A stretch of DNA of 63,992 bases, counting the filler, from Fonticula-like sp. SCN 57-25 (Eukaryota): NCBI GenBank assembly GCA_001724245.1. It is 8 parts of 8 records of this genome, joined end to end, with 100 filler letters (N's around TTAATTAATTAA, not from the genome) between each part and the next. Parts side by side here need not be neighbours in the genome. Positions count along the whole stretch, not along the records: positions 31,289 to 41,332 come from MEDX01000354.1; 7 more parts are not named here. One strand, given 5' to 3'. Shown here piece after piece: positions 18,407 through 63,992 of the stretch (the stretch's first letter is position 1; each line of letters starts with the position of its first letter). The notes under the pieces are model-generated. The model saw nothing but the letters and a program-made list of their open reading frames with translations. It did no database searches and had not been told where the DNA came from. Both the position numbers and the translations under genes were made by a program.

Positions 18407-18517
18407 GGTGCCAGTCAAGTGCGAGTGGACCACCGTAACGATATTTGATCACTTTGGTCCCTTTTGAAGAGAATCTCGTGTTCACAGTGGACCAAAGTGA
18501 TACAATCGCTGAATGTG

Positions 18518-19841
18518 ATGCGGAGCGTGGCTGCATGGTGGCGGCTTGGCATCGCGTGCGGTCGATCGCTCGCGTCCGCGCCGGTTGCCGGCCCGCCCAC
18601 TCCCGAGGCGGTCTCTGTGCTTCTGCGAGAGGCCCAGTCGTCGGCCGATCAGCTGCGATCGGTCGCTGACTGGCAGGCGCTGCGTGCCGAGCTCGCTACG
18701 CTCGAGGGCCAGCTTGAGGCGCCCGATCTCTGGTCCAATGCCAAGCAGGCATCTGCGCTGTCCCGTCGCGCGGGCGAGCTCAAGGCAAAGCTCACCGAGA
18801 TGACCCGCCTTACAGCGTCCGTATCCGACTACAGCGAGCTCGCGAGCCTTGCGCTCGCCGATCGCGACGACGATCTTCTCGCCGAGGTTGCCGATGGCCT
18901 CTCCAAGCTTGTGACCGAGACCCAAGCCTGCGCCTTTCGCGGCTGCATGAGCGGCGACGCCGACCCGCTTGGCTGCTTTGTCGAGGTCCGGTCCGGCGCC
19001 GGCGGCGTCGAGAGCATGGACTGGACGCAGATGCTCGCGCGCATGTACAGCCGCTGGGCCGAGTCGCGCTCGTTCGAGGTCGAGCTTGCCGACTCGCAAG
19101 CTGGCGAGCAGGCCGGTCTTCGCCACGCCGTGCTGCAGCTGCGTGGCGCGTACGCGTACGGCTGGCTCAAGCACGAAGCCGGCGTGCACCGCCTCGTGCG
19201 CATGTCGCCGTTTGACGCGGCCGGCAAGCGCCACACGAGCTTTGCGAGCGTCAACGTGCAGCCGCTCATTGAAGAGTCGGGCGACCTCGAGCAGGAAATT
19301 GACCCCTCGCAGATACGAATTGACGTTTACCGCGCGTCGGGGGCGGGCGGGCAGCACGTCAACAAGACGGAAAGCGCAGTCCGCATCACTCACATCCCAA
19401 CTGGAATCGTCGTCACGGTACGTGATTTTATGTACAATTTGTATCTTTTTTTACAGTCAATATCGTGTACCTACCATACTTTTGTATTTGTACTCTATTA
19501 TCAACCTTGTTTTATCCACTTTAATCGACCTTTCACTGACGCTTTGATAGTGCCAAAATGACCGCTCTCAGCACCGAAATCGGCGCATCGCCATGGCGAT
19601 GCTTCGCGCGCGCCTCTACGAGCTCGAACAGGAAAAACAGCGCGCTCGCCTCGTCGCCCAGAACGCGGCGCTTCCTTCGACGTCGTTTGGGTCGCAGATC
19701 AGGAGCTACGTGATGCAGCCGTACCAGCTCGTAAAGGACAGCCGAACCGGCGTCGAGCATGGAAATCCAGAGGCGGTCCTCGATGGTGACCTAGACAGGT
19801 TTCTGCAGGCGGCGGTCTTTGCAAAGGGCGGCAAAGTATGA
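18518..19841 (+). CDS. prfB: Bacterial-type peptide chain release factor 2, predicted mitochondrial
   Basis: SPF motif (HRLVRMSPFD), GGQ motif (RASGAGGQHVN), FGSQIRSYV; Arg/Ala/Ser-rich N-terminal extension; one GT-AG intron at 19418-19550. Confidence 0.93.
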
Positions 19842-38194: not shown

Positions 38195-39261
38195 CTAGGC
38201 GTGGGTGAGCTTGCGGCGCTGCGCGCACACGCCGCGCGGGTTGGCGAGCGCCTGCTGCAGCCTCGTGTTGAAGATGCTGACGCCGTAGTTGTGCGAATTT
38301 CCGCTGGACGGCGTGCAGCCGCCGTTGGTGTGGATGCCGATGGCAAAGTTTGACGTCGTGTCAAAGATGGCCGAGCCCGAGTTGCCGTTGCTCGTGTCCA
38401 CCCTGTGGTCGACCGTGTCGCCGCTGCGCCCATGGAAGGGGCCCGACGCGGTCTTTTGCACCCTGCGCTCGGTGGCGGGAAAGTCCTCGTTCTCGCCAAA
38501 GCCAATGATCTCGAGGTTGGCGCCAAACTCGGGGTTCTCGTCGCTGCGCGCCAGGCGGTACAGGAGACCAGTGTAGCGCTCCAGTGGCGTCAGGCCGTGC
38601 TCGCTGTTGGGGAACACGCCAAAGAAGCGCCAGTCGTTCGTGATGCCGTTGTAGGCGGTCTGCATGCTCTCCTGATCAACAATGTACTGATCCTCGGGGC
38701 CGGGATGCACGAGCGTGCCATCCTCCTTGCTCATCGGCACATTGAACTCGACAAGGCCGTAGCCGACGTCGGTGCAGTGACCGGCGCTGAGGAAGCAGTT
38801 GCCGGGCGCGTCCGTGATCCACGCAGTGCAGCAACCATTCGGGTCATCGTAAATGTAGCGGCCCTGGCGCGTATCATTCGAGAGAACACGCGTGTCCGGC
38901 GAATAGCACACGCTCTTCTCCTCCACTGCGCCCTCATTCGACGAAGAAGNACGAGGACGCTGTCGCCGTTAAAGTACGCGGTCGTCAGGCGCCACTGCGC
39001 CGCCGTCACGCCGTTGAGGTGCTGGACAGCGCCGTCCTCCAGGGAAGTGAGACGGAGCGTGTGGCCGTTCAGGCTGAGCTTGCGGAACCGCAGGCGGAGC
39101 CAGCCGGCATCCGACTGGCGGACAACGTCCTCAAAAACAACCTCGCCCTCGCGCTGCGCATTAAAGGTCAGCGTCAGTGCGTCCTCGCCTACCAAAAGCT
39201 GCTGCGCCTGTGCCGCCACGACGCAGAGCGCCAACACGGCCACAAGCGACCAGCGACCCAT
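38195..39261 (-). CDS. Secreted trypsin-like (S1) serine protease with N-terminal accessory domain; interrupted by an assembly N at 38950
   Basis: Signal peptide, CFLSAGHC (His), NDW (Asp), GNSGS (Ser), IGIHTNGGC; frame changes at the single N. Confidence 0.82.
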
Positions 39262-39362
39262 GATGGGATTGCCAGAACGGGGTGTGGGGCAGGTGTGGGG
39301 CGAAACAAAAGATGAATAATGAACAACCGAGCACCAAAAGAGCTAAAAAAAAATTAGGATGG

Positions 39363-39442
39363 TGACGAGGGTGGGATTTGAACCCACGCCCTTTCGGACT
39401 GGTGCCTTAAACCAGCGCCTTAGACCGCTCGGCCACCTCGCC
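39363..39442 (-). tRNA. tRNA-Leu (AAG)
   Basis: GGCGAGGTGGCCGAGCGGTCTAAGGCGCTGGT-TTAAGGC-ACCAGTCCGAAAGGGCGTGGGTTCAAATCCCACCCTCGTCA; long variable arm, A and B boxes, downstream T-run terminator. Confidence 0.96.
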
Positions 39443-39530
39443 TTTCCATGCATAGAGTGGAAAAAAAGGAGCATATAAACGAAAGGCATTGACCAGTTTG
39501 AAAGCGCGCGCGCTGCTCTCGCTCCGAACG

Positions 39531-40604
39531 ATGCTGTGTGCGCGGATCCCGGTGGCGCAGCTGCGCTCGCACGCTGCGGTGCGAGGCATGCTTCGCTGCG
39601 GCTTTAGTGCTGCGGCGACGGCAACGCGGCCGCACCATGTTTCTTCCAAGGACGGGTCCCGGAAAGGCGAGGTCGTTGTCGTGACATCGGGCAAAGGTGC
39701 GCGCGCAGCCAGCGCGGGATGTTGCGGCGGTACTGACCGCCATTGTTTTTCCCTTCCTTTGTGCGCGCTCTCTAGGCGGAGTGGGCAAGACGACGACTGC
39801 TGCCAGTTTTGCGTATGGACTTGCCCAGGCTGGCATGAAGACGTGCGCCATTGATTTCGACATTGGCCTGCGGAATTTAGACTTGCACCTGGTACGCTGC
39901 TCGCGTGCTTAATGTTTTGTGTCGACTAATGCCACGTGCAGGGCATGGAGCGCCGTGTGATCTACGACTTTGTCCATGTCATCCGCGGCGATGCGACGCT
40001 TCAGCAGAGTCTTATTCGCGACCGCCGCTGCGGCGATCTCTACGTTCTCGCTGCTTCCCAGACGCGCGACAAGACTGCGCTCACCGAGGACGGCGTCTCT
40101 CGCGTTCTCAACGAGCTTCGCCAGAGCTTTGACTATATCGTGTGCGACTCTCCCGCCGGCATTGAAAGCGGCGCCTTCCACGCCATGTACTATGCCGACC
40201 GCGCCATTGTGTGCACCAACCCCGAGGTGTCGTCGGTGCGCGACTCTGACAAGATGCTCGGCATCCTCAATAGCAAGTCGCACCGCGCGGTCAACGGCCT
40301 CGAGCCGATCGAGGCGCTGCTCCTCATCACGCGGTACCAGCCCGAGCTCGTCTCCAAGGACGCGATGCTCTCCGTCGACGACATCAATGAGATGCTCGGC
40401 ATTCCGTGCATCGGCGTCATCCCAGAGTCAAAGGACGTCATCGCCAGCGCCAACGTCGGCCAGCCCGTCATCCTCGCCGGGGACGACTCGGCGGCCGCCC
40501 AGGCGTACAAGGACTTTGTCCGGCGCTTCCTCGGCGAGGAGGTCCCGTTCAAGTTCCTCACGCCAGAGCCAAAGAGCCTGCTGTCGCGCATCTTTGGCCG
40601 ATGA
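39531..40604 (+). CDS. minD: Septum site-determining ATPase MinD, nucleus-encoded, predicted mitochondrial
   Basis: After splicing 39697-39775 and 39892-39941: [51 protein letters not shown]-terminal amphipathic [10 protein letters not shown]; Arg-rich presequence without acidic residues. Confidence 0.96.
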
Positions 40605-41332
40605 GCGGGGGCAACAGACAACGATGCACAGCCTCTAGTATGTTGGGGGATACGAATTTATAATCAGTTGGCGCGGCCAAAAGAAGCGCTTTTGGGCAAA
40701 TGTAAAAACTAATGATCTACTTGAATACAGTATTATCCTCCTTTAGTGGCACAGCAAAGAACCGTTTATAGTGGAAGGGCATTGTACGCTCGCAAGGGAA
40801 GGGCGAGGAACAGTGTCAAAGTATACGATGATCTGCGATTGGTCGATTTTGCTAATCGTCGCTTGTGATTGGTCCAATATTCCTATTAAATTGTATTGAT
40901 GCATTGCGCGCTAAATAGCCCAAGAATAAAAGCACGAAGAGGTCATATGTGGTGAAAATAGCAAAGTATACAATACACCAGTGTTGTTTGAGAGTTAATA
41001 TAGATGCTTTCAGTGAGGCGGACATTTCTCTCTTTCGCTCAACAGATCACATTGGTAAGCCTACAAATCAACTTGATGGACTGCTTGAAATCTTTCCCTT
41101 TTGATATGTTTGAAGGATGAAAAAAAGTGCTTCCTTTTTTGTCTCGCTTGGGCCACAACTGAACAACAGTCTTGCAAGAGTACTGGCGCTCTGGAGCATT
41201 GTTCAATGCGCGTTTTGATAAAGTTATCACGTCAAGTTAAGTGTCATCGATGACACATAGCGTTAAGTGTCATCGAATCACGTGATCATATGGGATGACT
41301 GCGCATAATCCGGGTTTTTTCCGGATTTTTTC

Positions 41333-53065: not shown

Positions 53066-56000
53066 ATGGAGGTGCCGGTGCCGGCCAACAGCGGGCGCTT
53101 CACGGCCTCCCGCATAGAAGGCAAAGAGGAGTTGTACAGCTTTTATTGCCAGGTTCGTTTTGCCTCGTACGCTGTTGGTATTTTTGAAACTCACAGTGAG
53201 ATGACAGGAATACCGTCCGTGGATTGAGCAAAAGATTGGCTATGAGCTTCCTTCCGGAGATCTCATCCACGAGCTGCAGAGCGGCGTGGTTCTTTGCGAG
53301 CTGATGACCGCGCTAAGGCCTGGTGCAATTACGCGAATCAAGAGCAGCGCGCCGCTCGAGAACGTGACCCGATTCCTGGAGGCCGCGCAACATGCCGGCG
53401 TGAAGGACAGCGACCTGTTTGCCCCGTCAGATCTGCTGCAGAAAGTCAACAAACTCAAGGTGGTGCAGTCGTTTGACGCGCTTCGTCAGCTTGCGCCCGA
53501 CTCGCAACCTGCCGGCGAGTCGCCGCACACCGTCGCCGGCAAGCGCGGCATGAAGAACCGCCGCCGCTCGATGGACCTCTTGCTCAGCGACTCGAGCACC
53601 GACTCGCTGCGGTCTGCCAAGGGTGGCCTATCGCTCTCAATGTCCTCTCTGCCCACCGAGGATGCTGATCTTGAAATTTTCGATACGCCCGTGATGGGCT
53701 CGCAGGAGTTTGCGCGCCGTTTCGAGGAGCACTCTTCCTCGCCATCCTCGCCGTCCACCACACGAGGCGGAATGCGGAGCCGCGGGTCCGTCTTGAGCCT
53801 TTTCTCTGCCCCTAGCGAGCCCGACTTGACGTCGGTGGGTGAGTCGTCTTCCTCCAAGGCGGCGAATGAGATTCCCTCCATCAACATTGTGCTGGAACCG
53901 GAGCTCGGTGCGTCGGATGAGCACCCTGTCACCGCCGTAGTGGAGGAGAAGCCGGCTGCGGTCGAGGCTCCGAAAGAGCCGTCCGCCGAGCCCGACGTCA
54001 AGCGGCAAGAGACGATGGTACCGGCGCCGCGTGAGGCAGAACCTGTTGCTGCGCCGGTCGCAGCCGAATCTGCCACACCCGAGTCGACGGCCGACGAGCA
54101 CCCCGCCCCGCTTGCGACCTCGGTGCCCGCCATTGATATCAAGCGCGTCCCTTTACCGGCGCCTCTGCCCATTGCGGCCAACGTCCCCCCGCCGCTCCCG
54201 ATCGCCACCGTTCCGCCTCCGATTGCCAGCATTTCCGGAACCGGTGTGGCTCCACGCCGAGGCTCGGCGGTGGTCCTCCAGCAGAAGAGTGTTTATCTGT
54301 CCCCGCTTTTGACGACGACCGACGAGAAGCAGGAGGATGCCCAAACCGAGCTCGATCTGCGTACCCCGCTCAGTGCGCACGTGCGTGCGGCCCTCGACAT
54401 GATCCCCGAGTCGCTCGGCGGGAGGGCCGGGCGCACCGACCTTTCCTCGTACTTTGTCGAGTTTGGCAGCACGACCGCCGAGGAGAAGCCCTCTTTGGAC
54501 TCGGAAGCGGATGCGCTGCAGGTTCCCACGCACGCGCGCGAGCCGTCGACTGCGTCGAACGCGTCCTCGTCTGACGGGTCGGACAGCGATGACTCGGAGG
54601 CCGAGGCGTACAATGCCCGCGTGCTGGCCCGCTCAAAGATTAATGTTAGCGAGACGTCGATTTCCTCAAAGAGCCGCGCCGCCGCCGTCGCCGCGTCCCT
54701 TGCGCCCGTCGAGATCCCCGCGCCGTCGCCTGACTTGTCGATACAGTCGAACCAATCCCCGCCAGGAAAGAGCGACCCCGGATGGCTGTCGGACCCGAGC
54801 AGCGCCAACATGGCCGACTTTTTCTCGTTCCCCGATCTTCCTTCGTCGTCCGTCGCGTCCGAGGGCACGCCCAACTCGAACCTCAACATTATTCGCGAGG
54901 ACAGCGTGTCGTCGTTCCCCGCGGCCGACGAGGACGAGGCTTCGCTGCTCGAGAACGAGCCGGAAGACACGATGCTCGAGTCGACGCGCAAGCTGAACGA
55001 GCTGCGCCTCAATGAAAACTTGACGCTGGACGAGATGATCGAGTACGAAAAGCTGCTCGCGCAGCGCGTTCGGAACGTGCACTTTGCCGAGCAGTGGAAC
55101 GCGCTGCTTTCTTTGCAGACGGCGATTTGCCAAGGCCACGTGCTTCCCGGCAAGTCGGCTCAGGCGATGGGCCGCGCGTGGGGCATGTCTGTGCCCACGT
55201 CGTACGCGCCGCCGGCCATCACGCGCCGCTTCAGCTCCCCGCGGCGTAGCGCGCTCAGCTCGACGTCGACGCCGAGCCCGCAGGGCAGCGGGATGAACCT
55301 CCTGGACCTGCTCGAGCAGCAGAACGAGCCCGAGTTCGATGGCACCAGCAGCCGCGGCGATTCAACGCCGCCGCCGCAGGTTACCTCGCACGAGCCGATG
55401 GTGGGCGCGCGCGTTCGCGCCGTGTGGGACTTTGCCGCAACCGCGCCGGACGAGCTGTCGCTGCAGCAGGACGACATTATTGTGGTGACCAAGGTCGAGA
55501 GCGATGGCTGGATGCAGGGCGAGTGCAACGGCAATGTGGGCTGGTTCCCAAGCAACTTTGTCGAGCGCATCGTGCGCCCCAGCCGCTCCAACTCGAGCTC
55601 GGTCGACGAGCAGATGCACGCCGGCTCGGCGGCTTCGAACCGCGCCCGCATGCTGATCAGCTCCTCGTCGGGCTCGATGGTGCAGCTCGCCACCGAGACG
55701 CGGTCGTGGTACCAAAAGTACAAGGAGGAGGAGCACAAGATCCGCGAGGTGGCCGAGATGCGCCGCGCCACGCAGCTGAGCGCGAGCGCGGGCACCGACA
55801 AGCCTCGCGCGCTCATCTGGAAGGACGACGTCGGGCCGCAGGTGGCCGGCTCCCTCTCGGAGCGCGACGTCCGCCGCCAGGAGGTGATCTACGAGCTCAT
55901 CATGACGGAGCGGGACTACGTCAAGGACCTCGACACCCTCCTCGAAGTGTACTATAGGCCGCTGCAGGCGCGCCGCATCATCAGCAGCAAGGACATTGCC

Positions 56001-56643
56001 GTGCTCTTTTCCAACGTTGACCAGCTCCTGACGATTAACCAGGAGCTGCTCCGGCTGATGGAGGAGCGCCGCGCGCGCGGTCCCATCATCGAGCAGGTCG
56101 GCGATATCATCAAGCGCTTGGTACGCTCCTTTTGCGGATTGGCCGATTTCCTTTTACTGATCTGCGCGCGCTAGGCCGACTACTTTAAGCTGTACACGCT
56201 GTACTGCAGCAACCACCCGTTTGCAATGATCAAGTACCAGAGCCTCAACGGCCGCCCGTTCCGCAAGTTCCTCGAGGACTGCTCGCGCCAGCCGCAGTGC
56301 CGCAACTTGGACCTCCCCGGCTTCCTTATCAAGCCCGTGCAGCGCATCTGCAAGTACCCTCTGCTCATCAAGGTACGACGCGCATATTTAGCCTTTGTCT
56401 CTGGTCGCTCACTGCTTGCCACAGGAATTGCTCAAGAACACGGATGAGAGCCATGTGGACTATGCGAATCTTGTTGGAGCGCAGGCCAAGCTCGAGACGG
56501 TTGTTGCGGTCGTGAATGAAAACTCGCGTCAGACCGAGGGCGTAAAGAACTCGATGGCCGTGCAGACCAAGTTCTTTGAGCGCCTCAACATTATCACGCC
56601 GACGCGCAAGCTTGTGCGCGAGGACCAGATGTACCAGGTTCCC
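53066..56643 (+). CDS. Dbl-family RhoGEF with CH, SH3 and DH(-PH) domains (3' truncated)
   Basis: LQSGVVLCEL...ENVTRFL (CH); AVWDF...DELSL...GWMQG...GWFPSNFVE (SH3); RQEVIYELIMTERDYVKDL, FLIKPVQRICKYPLL (DH). Confidence 0.9.
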
Positions 56644-62468: not shown

Positions 62469-63992
62469 CTACGCTACAGTGGGCTTGGGCTTGATCGGCG
62501 GCGGCTTTGGCTTGGCTGCCGTCACTGCCGGCCCGACCGCCGACCCCAAATTAGCCGCTGCCTGAGCCACCGCAGGCGCCAGTGTCCCCTCCTTTGGCGT
62601 CGTCGCCTCCTCACCGAGCTCGTCGTTGCCCGCATGGTAGCTCGACTTTCGCATATCCGAGAGCTCTTTCCGTGCGTTTGTGAGCTCCTTTTCGAGCGTC
62701 AAAATCTTGACCTGCTGCTCCATGTCCCTGCGCTTGCGCTGCCCCACCGTAAGCTCTGCAATCTGGCGCCTGCTCTCGCCCTCGAGCTTCTTGGCCGCGG
62801 CCTCTTTGGCGGCCTTGACGAGCAGCTTTGTCGCCTCGCTGACTGTCTTGGCGGCCGTCTCGAGGTTGGCCTGCGTGCGGCTGTTCTTGTCGGCCTTGAC
62901 GCGCGACGCAGCGACGAGCTGCGCGGTGGCGGCGCTGACTTCGTGCGCGGCAACAACGAGCTGCTCCATCGTGTGCGTCCCCTTGACGACGCCGTCGGCG
63001 TTCTCGACGAGCGTCGTCGTGCACATGGCAACGGCCTTGGCGGCCGACACGAGGCCTTCCGTCCACCTGTGATTCTTCTTGTAAAACTGCTGCGCCGACG
63101 CCGACCCGCGACCCTTGGCAACAATCTCCTGCTGCGCGAGCGTCGCCGCGCGAATAAGGTTGCCAATGGCGCCAGTGATGCCCATGACGCTCTCGAGAAT
63201 CGCCGTGTTCACCTTGTACTCGGCCGACGTGTCCGCCGATGGCGCGTTCAGCAGCGCACTCAGACGCGCAGCAGCAGCCTCAATTGCCTGCGCGGCGCTC
63301 AGCATTTCCTGCTCGACGCGGTCAGACACGTCGGGCAGCTCGTTCGTCTGCGCGACAGATTCAAGCCCGCGCGTCAGTTCCTCGACCGCTGATTGGGCAG
63401 CGGCGCGGCTCGCGGCAAGATTCGTAGTGTCGCGGTGCAGCATGTCCTGCATTGACCGCGCGACCGACCGCGCAGCATTCGAGATTGGCTCTGCAACGGC
63501 GTCGTCCAGCGACCGCGTCAGTCCCTTGACATTCTGAAGCAGCTGATCGGCGGCCGAGGCGGCGTCGCCGGCAACGCCCATCACGGCCGTCGGCGTTCCC
63601 TTGCCATCCTTGAGATTCATCAAGGTATTCGACAAGTCCCTTTAAAGTGCATCAGTATACGTGATAAAAGTTTAAATAGGCGTACGTTACAGATGACGTG
63701 ATCTTGTCGAGGTGTGCGAGAGTATAGTCGGCCGTCGCGTTCTGGTTGCCAGCGTGCAGTGGCGAGTCAAACTGAAACACTGACTCTTCGATCTTTGTCC
63801 GCGACGCATCCAGCATATCATCTATGGTTCCATTGAGTGTGTCAGCAAGAACAAAAAAGGCGTCAGATTCGTACCGAGAAGGCCGTTCATTTCGTTGGAC
63901 TGCTTGTCGCGCAGTGCGTCAAGCTCGGCCTGTAGGGCGCGAGCACGTGCGTCTGCCTCGTTCTGAATCACACTCGACTCGCGCAGCGCATG
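62469..63992 (-). CDS. SLA2: Sla2/End4/HIP1-family endocytic adaptor, C-terminal I/LWEQ domain
   Basis: FYKKNHRWTEGLVSAAKAVA, EQLVVAAHEVSAATAQLVAASRVKA, MEQQVKILTLEKEL; 5' end outside the window. Confidence 0.93.

What the first reader, a model, noticed from the sequence alone, without database searches (positions are those of the whole stretch)
39531..40604. Intron-containing nuclear MinD with mitochondrial presequence: a bacterial Min division system in the mitochondrion
Seen: a complete MinD, split by two spliceosomal introns so the ORF track shows it in pieces. It has the deviant Walker A (SGKGGVGKT), the C-terminal membrane-targeting helix [10 protein letters not shown], and a ~45-aa Arg-rich extension. 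Motifs ASQTRDK and [12 protein letters not shown] look proteobacterial rather than cyanobacterial or plastid. Known: mitochondrial MinCDE/FtsZ survives patchily in protists (e.g. dictyostelids, apusomonads, jakobids, stramenopiles) and is reported missing from animals and fungi. Inference: this organism retains the ancestral mitochondrial division machinery.
Basis: partly seen in the sequence, partly recalled or inferred. Interest (0 to 1): 0.8.

Follow-up and report, generated by a model that had tools for sequence, protein, structure and literature searches.

The report
Nuclear mitochondrial-type MinD gene of a protist
An uncultured single-celled eukaryote carries an intact, intron-split nuclear copy of the bacterial division ATPase MinD, of the type already known from the mitochondria of several protist groups, so it adds an example to a known but patchy system.

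Summary
Window 39531-40604 (+) is a complete MinD gene. It has three exons and two GT-AG introns of 79 and 50 nt. Splicing gives a 314-aa frame with no internal stop and no gap against homologues. The gene lies among plainly eukaryotic genes.

In a careful maximum-likelihood tree it falls in a fully supported clade (100/99) of 34 eukaryote-type MinDs. That clade holds the annotated mitochondrial MinD of Malawimonas and the MinDs of Thecamonas, Stygiella, dictyostelids and Vannella. None of the 50 bacterial rows falls inside it.

A second strain differs at 3 of 945 coding bases, all synonymous, against 4 of 129 intron bases.

The 44-residue N-terminal extension is basic, with no acidic residue in the first 40. 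No targeting predictor could be run.

No genome is held, so MinC, MinE and FtsZ in this organism could not be tested. No RNA evidence was found, and no plastid or cyanobacterial MinD could be fetched for the tree.

The host is an uncultured eukaryote seen in metagenomes. Its eIF5 lies outside the sampled Fungi and Holozoa. I rate it a new member of a known kind, of moderate interest.

The parts
39531..39696 (+). Exon 1: start codon, 44-residue basic N-terminal extension (39531-39662), and the first half of the deviant Walker A (SGKG, from 39687)
   Evidence: Translation. It is the first ATG after the in-frame stop. Composition. 0 of 166 bases differ in the second strain.
39697..39775 (+). Intron 1: 79 nt, GTGCGC...polypyrimidine...CTCTAG, phase 1
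   Evidence: If retained, the frame runs into a stop and loses the P-loop. 2 of 79 bases differ in the second strain. Not confirmed by RNA.
39776..39891 (+). Exon 2: second half of Walker A (GVGKT, to 39792) and the switch I region [15 protein letters not shown]
   Evidence: Translation. TIGR01968 positions 12-48. 0 of 116 bases differ in the second strain.
39892..39941 (+). Intron 2: 50 nt, GTACGC...GTGCAG, phase 0
   Evidence: 2 of 50 bases differ in the second strain; one turns GTACGC into GTGCGC, the same 5' site as intron 1. Unspliced DNA contigs from X4 and X5 span it.
39942..40604 (+). Exon 3: the rest of the ATPase ([20 protein letters not shown]), the C-terminal amphipathic membrane-targeting helix [10 protein letters not shown] (40572-40601) and the stop codon
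   Evidence: Translation. TIGR01968 246 bits and NF008079 293.8 bits. End-to-end match to P. aeruginosa MinD 6riq and E. coli MinD 3q9l. 3 of 663 bases differ in the second strain, all synonymous.

Best explanation
This is a functional nuclear gene of an uncultured heterotrophic eukaryote. It encodes the mitochondrial-type MinD, an orthologue of the MinD of the FtsZ-MinCDE system that several protist lineages inherited with the mitochondrion.

Shown here: the three-exon gene structure, the full set of MinD sequence hallmarks, purifying selection, eukaryotic neighbours, and membership of the eukaryote-type MinD clade.

Inferred: the two introns are spliced out. The 314-aa precursor is imported into the matrix by its basic N-terminal presequence, which is then cleaved. 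The roughly 270-aa mature ATPase dimerises on ATP and binds the matrix face of the inner membrane through its C-terminal amphipathic helix. There, with MinC and MinE, it restricts the mitochondrial FtsZ ring to mid-organelle, as MinD does in bacteria.
For: Gene model: The spliced frame is open and gap-free against homologues.

Family: Exon 3 alone passes the equivalog cut-off of TIGR01968. It matches solved MinDs end to end: 6riq 278 bits, 3q9l 256 bits.

Phylogeny: In a careful IQ-TREE of 84 rows by 270 columns, the 34 eukaryote-type rows including the window form one side of a branch, with UFBoot 100, SH-aLRT 99 and length 0.32. All 50 bacterial rows are on the other side. The same 34-row set has support 99 in a 229-row FastTree that holds all 110 bacterial genome loci.

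Closest relatives: Over the mature region the window is 66.9% identical to Thecamonas and 63.7% to the Malawimonas 'Mitochondrial MinD'. It matches the eukaryote state at 4 of 5 columns that separate 6 named eukaryotes from 3 bacteria.

Selection: In the second-strain contig L111 (97.66% identical), coding bases differ at 3 of 945, all synonymous. Introns differ at 4 of 129 and downstream DNA at 22 of 590. A further exon-1 variant in run X2 at 39584 (A>C) is, by my own codon reading of the sequence (CGA to CGC), also synonymous.

Independent DNA: Unspliced genomic contigs from 3 further studies cover the exon-intron borders.

Context: eIF5, RRP12, RIO2, BAR, CH-SH3-RhoGEF and I/LWEQ genes lie in the same window.

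Extension: It has net charge +6 and no acidic residue in the first 40 residues, against a mature part of net -5. Of the 23 eukaryote-type MinDs with a complete N-terminus, 21 have a net-positive extension. The window's own mitochondrial-type release factor has a similar N-terminus, while 6 other window proteins have their first acidic residue at positions 2-19.

Literature: FtsZ plus MinCDE is described as a mitochondrial system of protists in passages of PMC7050145, PMC4989108 and PMC8321541.
Against: No RNA run holds the locus, so splicing and expression are unconfirmed.

The hydrophobic moment of the extension is no higher than that of shuffles (0.581 against a mean of 0.579; 46% of shuffles reach it).

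MinC, MinE and FtsZ could not be sought in the organism. They are not in the window.

No plastid or cyanobacterial MinD was in the tree. Only one labelled alphaproteobacterial row was present, so the bacterial sister of the clade is unresolved.

The 34-row 'eukaryote-type' set was first delimited from the FastTree. Only 8 of its rows carry a eukaryote name or source.
Confidence: 0.85

Rival explanations
1. It is a mitochondrial-type MinD that is retained, but not as part of a complete FtsZ-MinCDE division system. The partners may be lost and MinD kept for another membrane or nucleoid task.
For: The partners were not testable and not found in the window. Losses of the system are common among eukaryotes, for example in diplonemids and kinetoplastids (PMC12699882 passages).
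Against: The MinC/MinE-facing segment [13 protein letters not shown] and the membrane helix are conserved. All four coding variants seen between strains are synonymous (the fourth by my codon reading). In Andalucia and Stygiella, MinD is reported together with MinC, MinE and FtsZ.
Confidence: 0.1
2. It is a plastid-type (cyanobacterium-derived) MinD aimed at a plastid.
For: No plastid or cyanobacterial MinD could be placed in the tree, so this was not tested directly.
Against: Among the 120 best of 7999 hits, every named one is a proteobacterium or a eukaryote of the mitochondrial-type set. The gene is in a 100/99 clade with plastid-less protists: Thecamonas, dictyostelids, Malawimonas and Stygiella. 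It scores higher on the proteobacterial model NF008079 than on TIGR01968.
Confidence: 0.02
3. It is a bacterial contaminant, an assembly chimera or a recent bacterial transfer.
For: The source looks like a metagenome. Identity to gammaproteobacterial MinD (62-66%) is as high as to eukaryotic MinDs.
Against: There are two introns, one of which splits the P-loop codon. Eukaryotic genes lie on the same stretch. The same intron-bearing locus appears in another assembly and in contigs of 3 other studies. No bacterial row falls in its clade.
Confidence: 0.02
4. It is a decaying pseudogene.
For: No expression data were found.
Against: The frame is open, all motifs are intact, and strain differences are synonymous in exons but denser in introns and flanks.
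Confidence: 0.01

Closest known systems
Mitochondrial MinD of protists (FtsZ-MinCDE system; Leger et al. 2015 PNAS, known here only through citing passages and recall). Examples: Thecamonas trahens, Malawimonas californiana 'Mitochondrial MinD', Stygiella incarcerata, dictyostelids, Vannella
   Same: It is nuclear-encoded, has an N-terminal basic extension, and has the same MinD core and C-terminal helix. It is in one 100/99 clade with them, at 62-67% identity over the mature region.
   Different: It comes from an uncultured organism with no close named relative; the nearest sequence, P0005, is 78% identical and unnamed. Its partners and localisation are unknown. It has its own intron positions. 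P0005 starts with unalignable residues about 20 residues into exon 3, which suggests an intron elsewhere (inference).
Bacterial MinD (E. coli 3q9l, P. aeruginosa 6riq; NCBIfam TIGR01968 and NF008079)
   Same: It has the deviant Walker A, switch regions, dimer-interface helix and membrane-targeting helix. It aligns end to end at about 62-63% identity.
   Different: It has introns, a 44-residue extension, and eukaryote-type substitutions: NLDLH-LGM for NLDLI-MGC, CTNPE for VTNPE, and DSDK for DSDR. It is not next to minC or minE.
Plastid MinD1 (ARC11) of plants and algae, cyanobacterium-derived (PMC13650779 passages)
   Same: It is a nuclear gene for an organelle-targeted MinD that positions an FtsZ ring.
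   Different: It has a different ancestry and a different target organelle. No plastid-type sequence appears among the listed hits. This was not tested in a tree.

Membership tests
MinD (ParA/MinD-type deviant Walker A ATPase, TIGR01968) | Deviant Walker A xKGGxGK[ST] with the signature lysine | tested here: met
   SGKGGVGKT is restored across intron 1.
MinD (ParA/MinD-type deviant Walker A ATPase, TIGR01968) | Score above the curated equivalog cut-off | tested here: met
   Exon 3 alone scores 246 bits against a cut-off of 212.9. Exon 2 adds 48.8 bits on profile positions 12-48. The spliced whole was not scored, because joined sequence was not typed into tools.
MinD (ParA/MinD-type deviant Walker A ATPase, TIGR01968) | Switch I (DFDxGLRNLD) and the switch II / Walker B region (DSPAGIE) | tested here: met
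   Both are present and invariant in alignment A1. The motif names are recalled.
MinD (ParA/MinD-type deviant Walker A ATPase, TIGR01968) | C-terminal amphipathic membrane-targeting helix | tested here: met
   [10 protein letters not shown] aligns with KGFLKRLFGG-type ends. The hydrophobic moment is 0.44, with no control run.
MinD (ParA/MinD-type deviant Walker A ATPase, TIGR01968) | Partners MinE and MinC (and FtsZ) encoded by the same organism | not testable with these tools
   No genome is held. They are absent from the 132 window ORFs scanned with Pfam. tblastn with 78 bacterial MinE and 57 MinC queries gave a best E of 0.001 for one query, which is not significant over 135 queries.
Mitochondrial MinD of eukaryotes | Monophyly with known mitochondrial MinDs, apart from bacteria | tested here: met
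   The 34-row clade has support 100/99 and contains none of the 50 bacterial rows.
Mitochondrial MinD of eukaryotes | Nuclear gene | tested here: met
   There are two GT-AG introns, eukaryotic neighbours and an adjacent nuclear-type tRNA-Leu gene. Splicing itself is not confirmed by RNA.
Mitochondrial MinD of eukaryotes | Cleavable mitochondrial presequence | tested here: inconclusive
   The composition fits: 6 R, 1 K, no acidic residue in the first 40. It resembles the window's mtRF1-like N-terminus. The amphipathic moment is not above shuffles. TargetP and MitoFates were not available.
Mitochondrial MinD of eukaryotes | Localisation in mitochondria | not testable with these tools
   This needs tagging or proteomics.
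Plastid MinD | Branches with cyanobacterial MinD | not tested
   No cyanobacterial or plastid sequence could be fetched. The genome-contig scan kept 69 gamma-, 7 beta- and 4 unclassified proteobacterial loci. The indirect evidence is against it.

The most novel reading that the evidence does not exclude
The host may be a member of an unsampled lineage at or near the base of Opisthokonta. Its eIF5 sits in an unnamed 8-row group on the internode between Fungi and Holozoa, and its MinD lies near the apusomonad one. If the host lies inside Opisthokonta, this would be the first Min-system gene in that supergroup. It would show that the bacterial division apparatus outlasted the opisthokont ancestor.
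Probability: 0.12. Interest if true: 0.65.

Novelty: new member of a known kind. Interest (0 to 1): 0.3.

Why it matters
The mitochondrial FtsZ-Min system is a relic of the bacterial ancestor, kept by scattered protists. Each new lineage that keeps it sharpens the map of where and how often it was lost.

This copy comes from an uncultured eukaryote found in bioreactor, wastewater, soil and fungus-associated metagenomes, with no close named relative. It adds one data point and a clean, intron-verified gene model. It does not change the picture unless the host proves to be an opisthokont.

Tried and rejected
MinC, MinE and FtsZ in the organism are therefore untested.

RNA evidence: No RNA holder is listed. 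The one run flagged 'RNA?' gave a single 217-base contig and is probably DNA. No joints were seen.

Labelled outgroups: The one genome-contig scan kept only gamma- and betaproteobacteria. A sample of 151 Pseudomonadota genomes gave MinD in 42, but they are unlabelled. No cyanobacterial, plastid or well-labelled alphaproteobacterial set was obtained, so the bacterial origin of the clade was not addressed.

Host placement: The eIF5 hits and FastTree place the host outside the sampled Fungi and Holozoa, but there is no outgroup. The RRP12 search gave only 5 hits and no signal. The Atlas look-up of eIF5 gave no useful taxa.

Earlier findings: Three look-ups returned nothing.

Leger et al. 2015: The paper is not held under its DOI or PMC id. 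Its content is cited only through other papers' passages and recall.

Dropped rows: Two rows of the 120 hits were left out of the trees. P0006 has an internal duplication in alignment A1. P0004 is the window's own exon-3 ORF.

Relative's locus: The metagenome scan did not return the contig of the 78% relative P0005, so intron conservation could not be compared.

Literature on opisthokonts: Searches for MinD with Thecamonas or with opisthokonts listed no paper reporting Min genes in opisthokonts. This covers only those two searches of the held library.

Full report
THE GENE. On the + strand an ATG at 39531 opens a frame that encodes 55 residues ending in TSGK. A GT at 39697 and an AG at 39775 bound a 79-nt intron with a polypyrimidine tract. 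The next exon, 39776-39891, begins GVGKTTT.... A second GT-AG intron of 50 nt (39892-39941) precedes a 221-codon exon that ends at the TGA at 40602-40604. Joined by coordinates in a script, the three exons give 945 nt and 314 aa with no internal stop. Intron 1 lies inside the glycine codon of the P-loop, and splicing restores SGKGGVGKT. Across both junctions the alignment with 6 named eukaryotic and 3 bacterial MinDs has no gap or insert column in the mature region. If intron 1 is read through, the frame loses the P-loop and stops.

FAMILY. Exon 3 alone scores 246 bits on the NCBIfam equivalog TIGR01968 (cut-off 212.9) and 293.8 bits on NF008079. Exon 2 matches profile positions 12-48. Pfam sees only the general CbiA, AAA_31 and ParA P-loop families. 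Exon 3 aligns end to end with solved MinDs of P. aeruginosa (6riq, 278 bits) and E. coli (3q9l, 256 bits). The C-terminal [10 protein letters not shown] lies where bacterial MinD has its amphipathic membrane helix.

NUCLEAR CONTEXT. Pfam scans covered 132 window ORFs in two calls. A family was found in 10 of 23 ORFs and in 20 of 109. The genes found include eIF5, RRP12, RIO2, a Myb protein, a BAR-domain protein, CH-SH3-RhoGEF, an I/LWEQ (talin/Sla2-like) protein, HEATR5/Laa1, an ABCD-type transporter, PHAF1, an F-box protein and an intron-split mitochondrial-type release factor. A tRNA-Leu(AAG) gene lies 89 bp upstream of the MinD ATG on the other strand. No MinC, MinE or FtsZ family was hit. 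tblastn with 78 bacterial MinE and 57 MinC sequences gave nothing significant, while the positive control with a bacterial MinD found exons 2 and 3.

A SECOND STRAIN AND INDEPENDENT DNA. A 1994-bp contig of another assembly (L111) matches window 39191-41194 at 97.66% identity. Differences by region are as follows:
- Exons: 3 of 945, all synonymous.
- Introns: 4 of 129.
- tRNA: 0 of 83.
- 5' spacer: 1 of 88.
- Downstream: 22 of 590.
- Upstream: 19 of 169.
One intron change turns GTACGC into GTGCGC, the 5' site of intron 1. Contigs of three further studies (X2, X4, X5) carry the unspliced form across the exon-intron borders and share the same variants. A fourth coding variant, 39584 A>C in X2, changes CGA to CGC by my reading of the sequence and so is also synonymous. 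The pattern fits exons under purifying selection and introns evolving like non-coding DNA. No RNA holder was listed and no spliced joint was seen, so splicing remains an inference. The run list suggests that the window comes from a metagenome.

PHYLOGENY. The best named hits of exon 3 are Thecamonas trahens (63%), Stygiella, Vannella, two dictyostelids and the Malawimonas 'Mitochondrial MinD' (59-62%). Gammaproteobacterial MinDs reach 63-66%. The nearest sequence is an unnamed 208-aa ORF at 78% (P0005). I built a FastTree of 229 rows: the window, 118 of the 120 hits (dropping the window's own ORF P0004 and the internally duplicated P0006), and 110 bacterial genome loci. It gave a 34-row clade of eukaryote-type sequences including the window, with support 99. 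I then ran a careful IQ-TREE (LG+C20+F+G4 PMSF) on 84 rows by 270 columns. These were the 34 eukaryote-type rows, 38 bacterial representatives clustered at 78%, and 12 bacterial metagenome MinDs. The 34 rows form one side of a branch with UFBoot 100, SH-aLRT 99 and length 0.32. The window pairs with P0005 at 100/99. Inside the clade, the pair sits in an 8-row group with Thecamonas+P0012, Stygiella and three unnamed rows (95/78, not starred), so its exact sister is unresolved.

Limits of the tree: the 34-row set was first read off the FastTree. Only 8 of its rows carry a eukaryote name or source. As independent support, 23 have a complete N-terminus with a 20-58-residue extension. The bacterial rows are gamma- and betaproteobacteria, unlabelled Pseudomonadota and one alphaproteobacterial MAG. 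No cyanobacterial or plastid MinD could be obtained. A recent bacterial origin or contamination is therefore rejected. A plastid affinity is only indirectly disfavoured. The alphaproteobacterial origin claimed in the literature was not tested.

THE EXTENSION. The P-loop starts at residue 54, against a median of residue 10 in bacteria, which leaves 44 extra residues. These hold 6 Arg, 1 Lys, 3 His, 8 Ala, 5 Ser, 1 Asp and 0 Glu. The first acidic residue is at position 41. The net charge is +6, against -5 for the mature part. Of the 23 eukaryote-type MinDs with complete N-termini, 21 have net-positive extensions. Within the window, the mitochondrial-type release factor has a similar N-terminus (4 Arg, first acidic residue at position 30). 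Six other proteins have their first acidic residue at positions 2-19. That comparison uses crude first-Met models and is small. Against the presequence reading, the maximal helical hydrophobic moment (0.581) equals the shuffle mean (0.579), and 46% of shuffles reach it. No targeting predictor was available.

THE HOST. The eIF5 gene's best named hits are chytrids, Mucoromycota, an aphelid, Capsaspora and animals at about 40%. Unnamed sequences reach 46-48%. In a FastTree of 121 rows, the window falls in a starred group of 8 unnamed rows. That group attaches between Fungi (67 rows) and Holozoa (46 rows) and lies inside neither. Without an outgroup, this fits any lineage outside the two sampled groups: an apusomonad, a breviate, an amoebozoan, or a deep opisthokont. 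RRP12 was uninformative. The host therefore remains unplaced.

WHAT IS KNOWN. Passages in PMC7050145, PMC4989108, PMC8321541 and PMC12699882 describe FtsZ plus MinC, MinD and MinE as an ancestral mitochondrial division system. They say it is kept by some protists (Andalucia, Stygiella) and lost in others (diplonemids, kinetoplastids), citing Leger et al. 2015. That paper is not held, and its taxon list is known to me only by recall. Two searches of the held library listed no report of Min genes in opisthokonts.

VERDICT. The reading as a nuclear, mitochondrial-type MinD is well supported (0.85). The wider claim that the organism keeps the whole machinery is plausible but untested. This is a new member of a known kind, from an uncultured and unplaced eukaryote, and of moderate interest.

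Noticed in passing
window 39360-39442 (-): A tRNA-Leu(AAG) gene lies 89 bp upstream of the MinD start codon, on the opposite strand. It is identical in the second strain (0 of 83 differences), whereas the DNA beyond it differs at 19 of 169 bases.
   Followed up: partly
window 38195-39262 (-): The upstream neighbour is an ORF with a hydrophobic N-terminus and SAGHC / GNSGS motifs like a chymotrypsin-fold serine protease (motif reading recalled). It has no Pfam hit at E 1e-5.
   Followed up: no
window 18449-19838 (+): A bacterial/mitochondrial-type class I release factor gene (PCRF + RF-1) is split over two frames, presumably by an intron. Its N-terminus is Arg-rich like the MinD extension.
   Followed up: partly
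window 53205-56444 (+) and 62472-63641 (-): A CH-SH3-RhoGEF (PIX-like) protein and an I/LWEQ (talin/Sla2-type) protein are present. Such adhesion and actin-linker architectures hint at an amorphean host. The taxonomic reading is recalled, not tested.
   Followed up: no
P0005 versus window exon 3: The 78% relative is recorded only as a 208-aa ORF. Its first ~9 residues do not align and it starts about 20 residues into exon 3. This suggests that its gene is also intron-split, but at another position.
   Followed up: no
window, several places: The window holds 617 N in short runs. None lies within the MinD gene. One single N lies in the upstream neighbour.
   Followed up: no
window 40215-40250: In the laid metagenome contigs, depth rises about tenfold over the [18 protein letters not shown] stretch, with loose ends on both sides. 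Here other organisms' MinD genes are alike enough to be laid.
   Followed up: no
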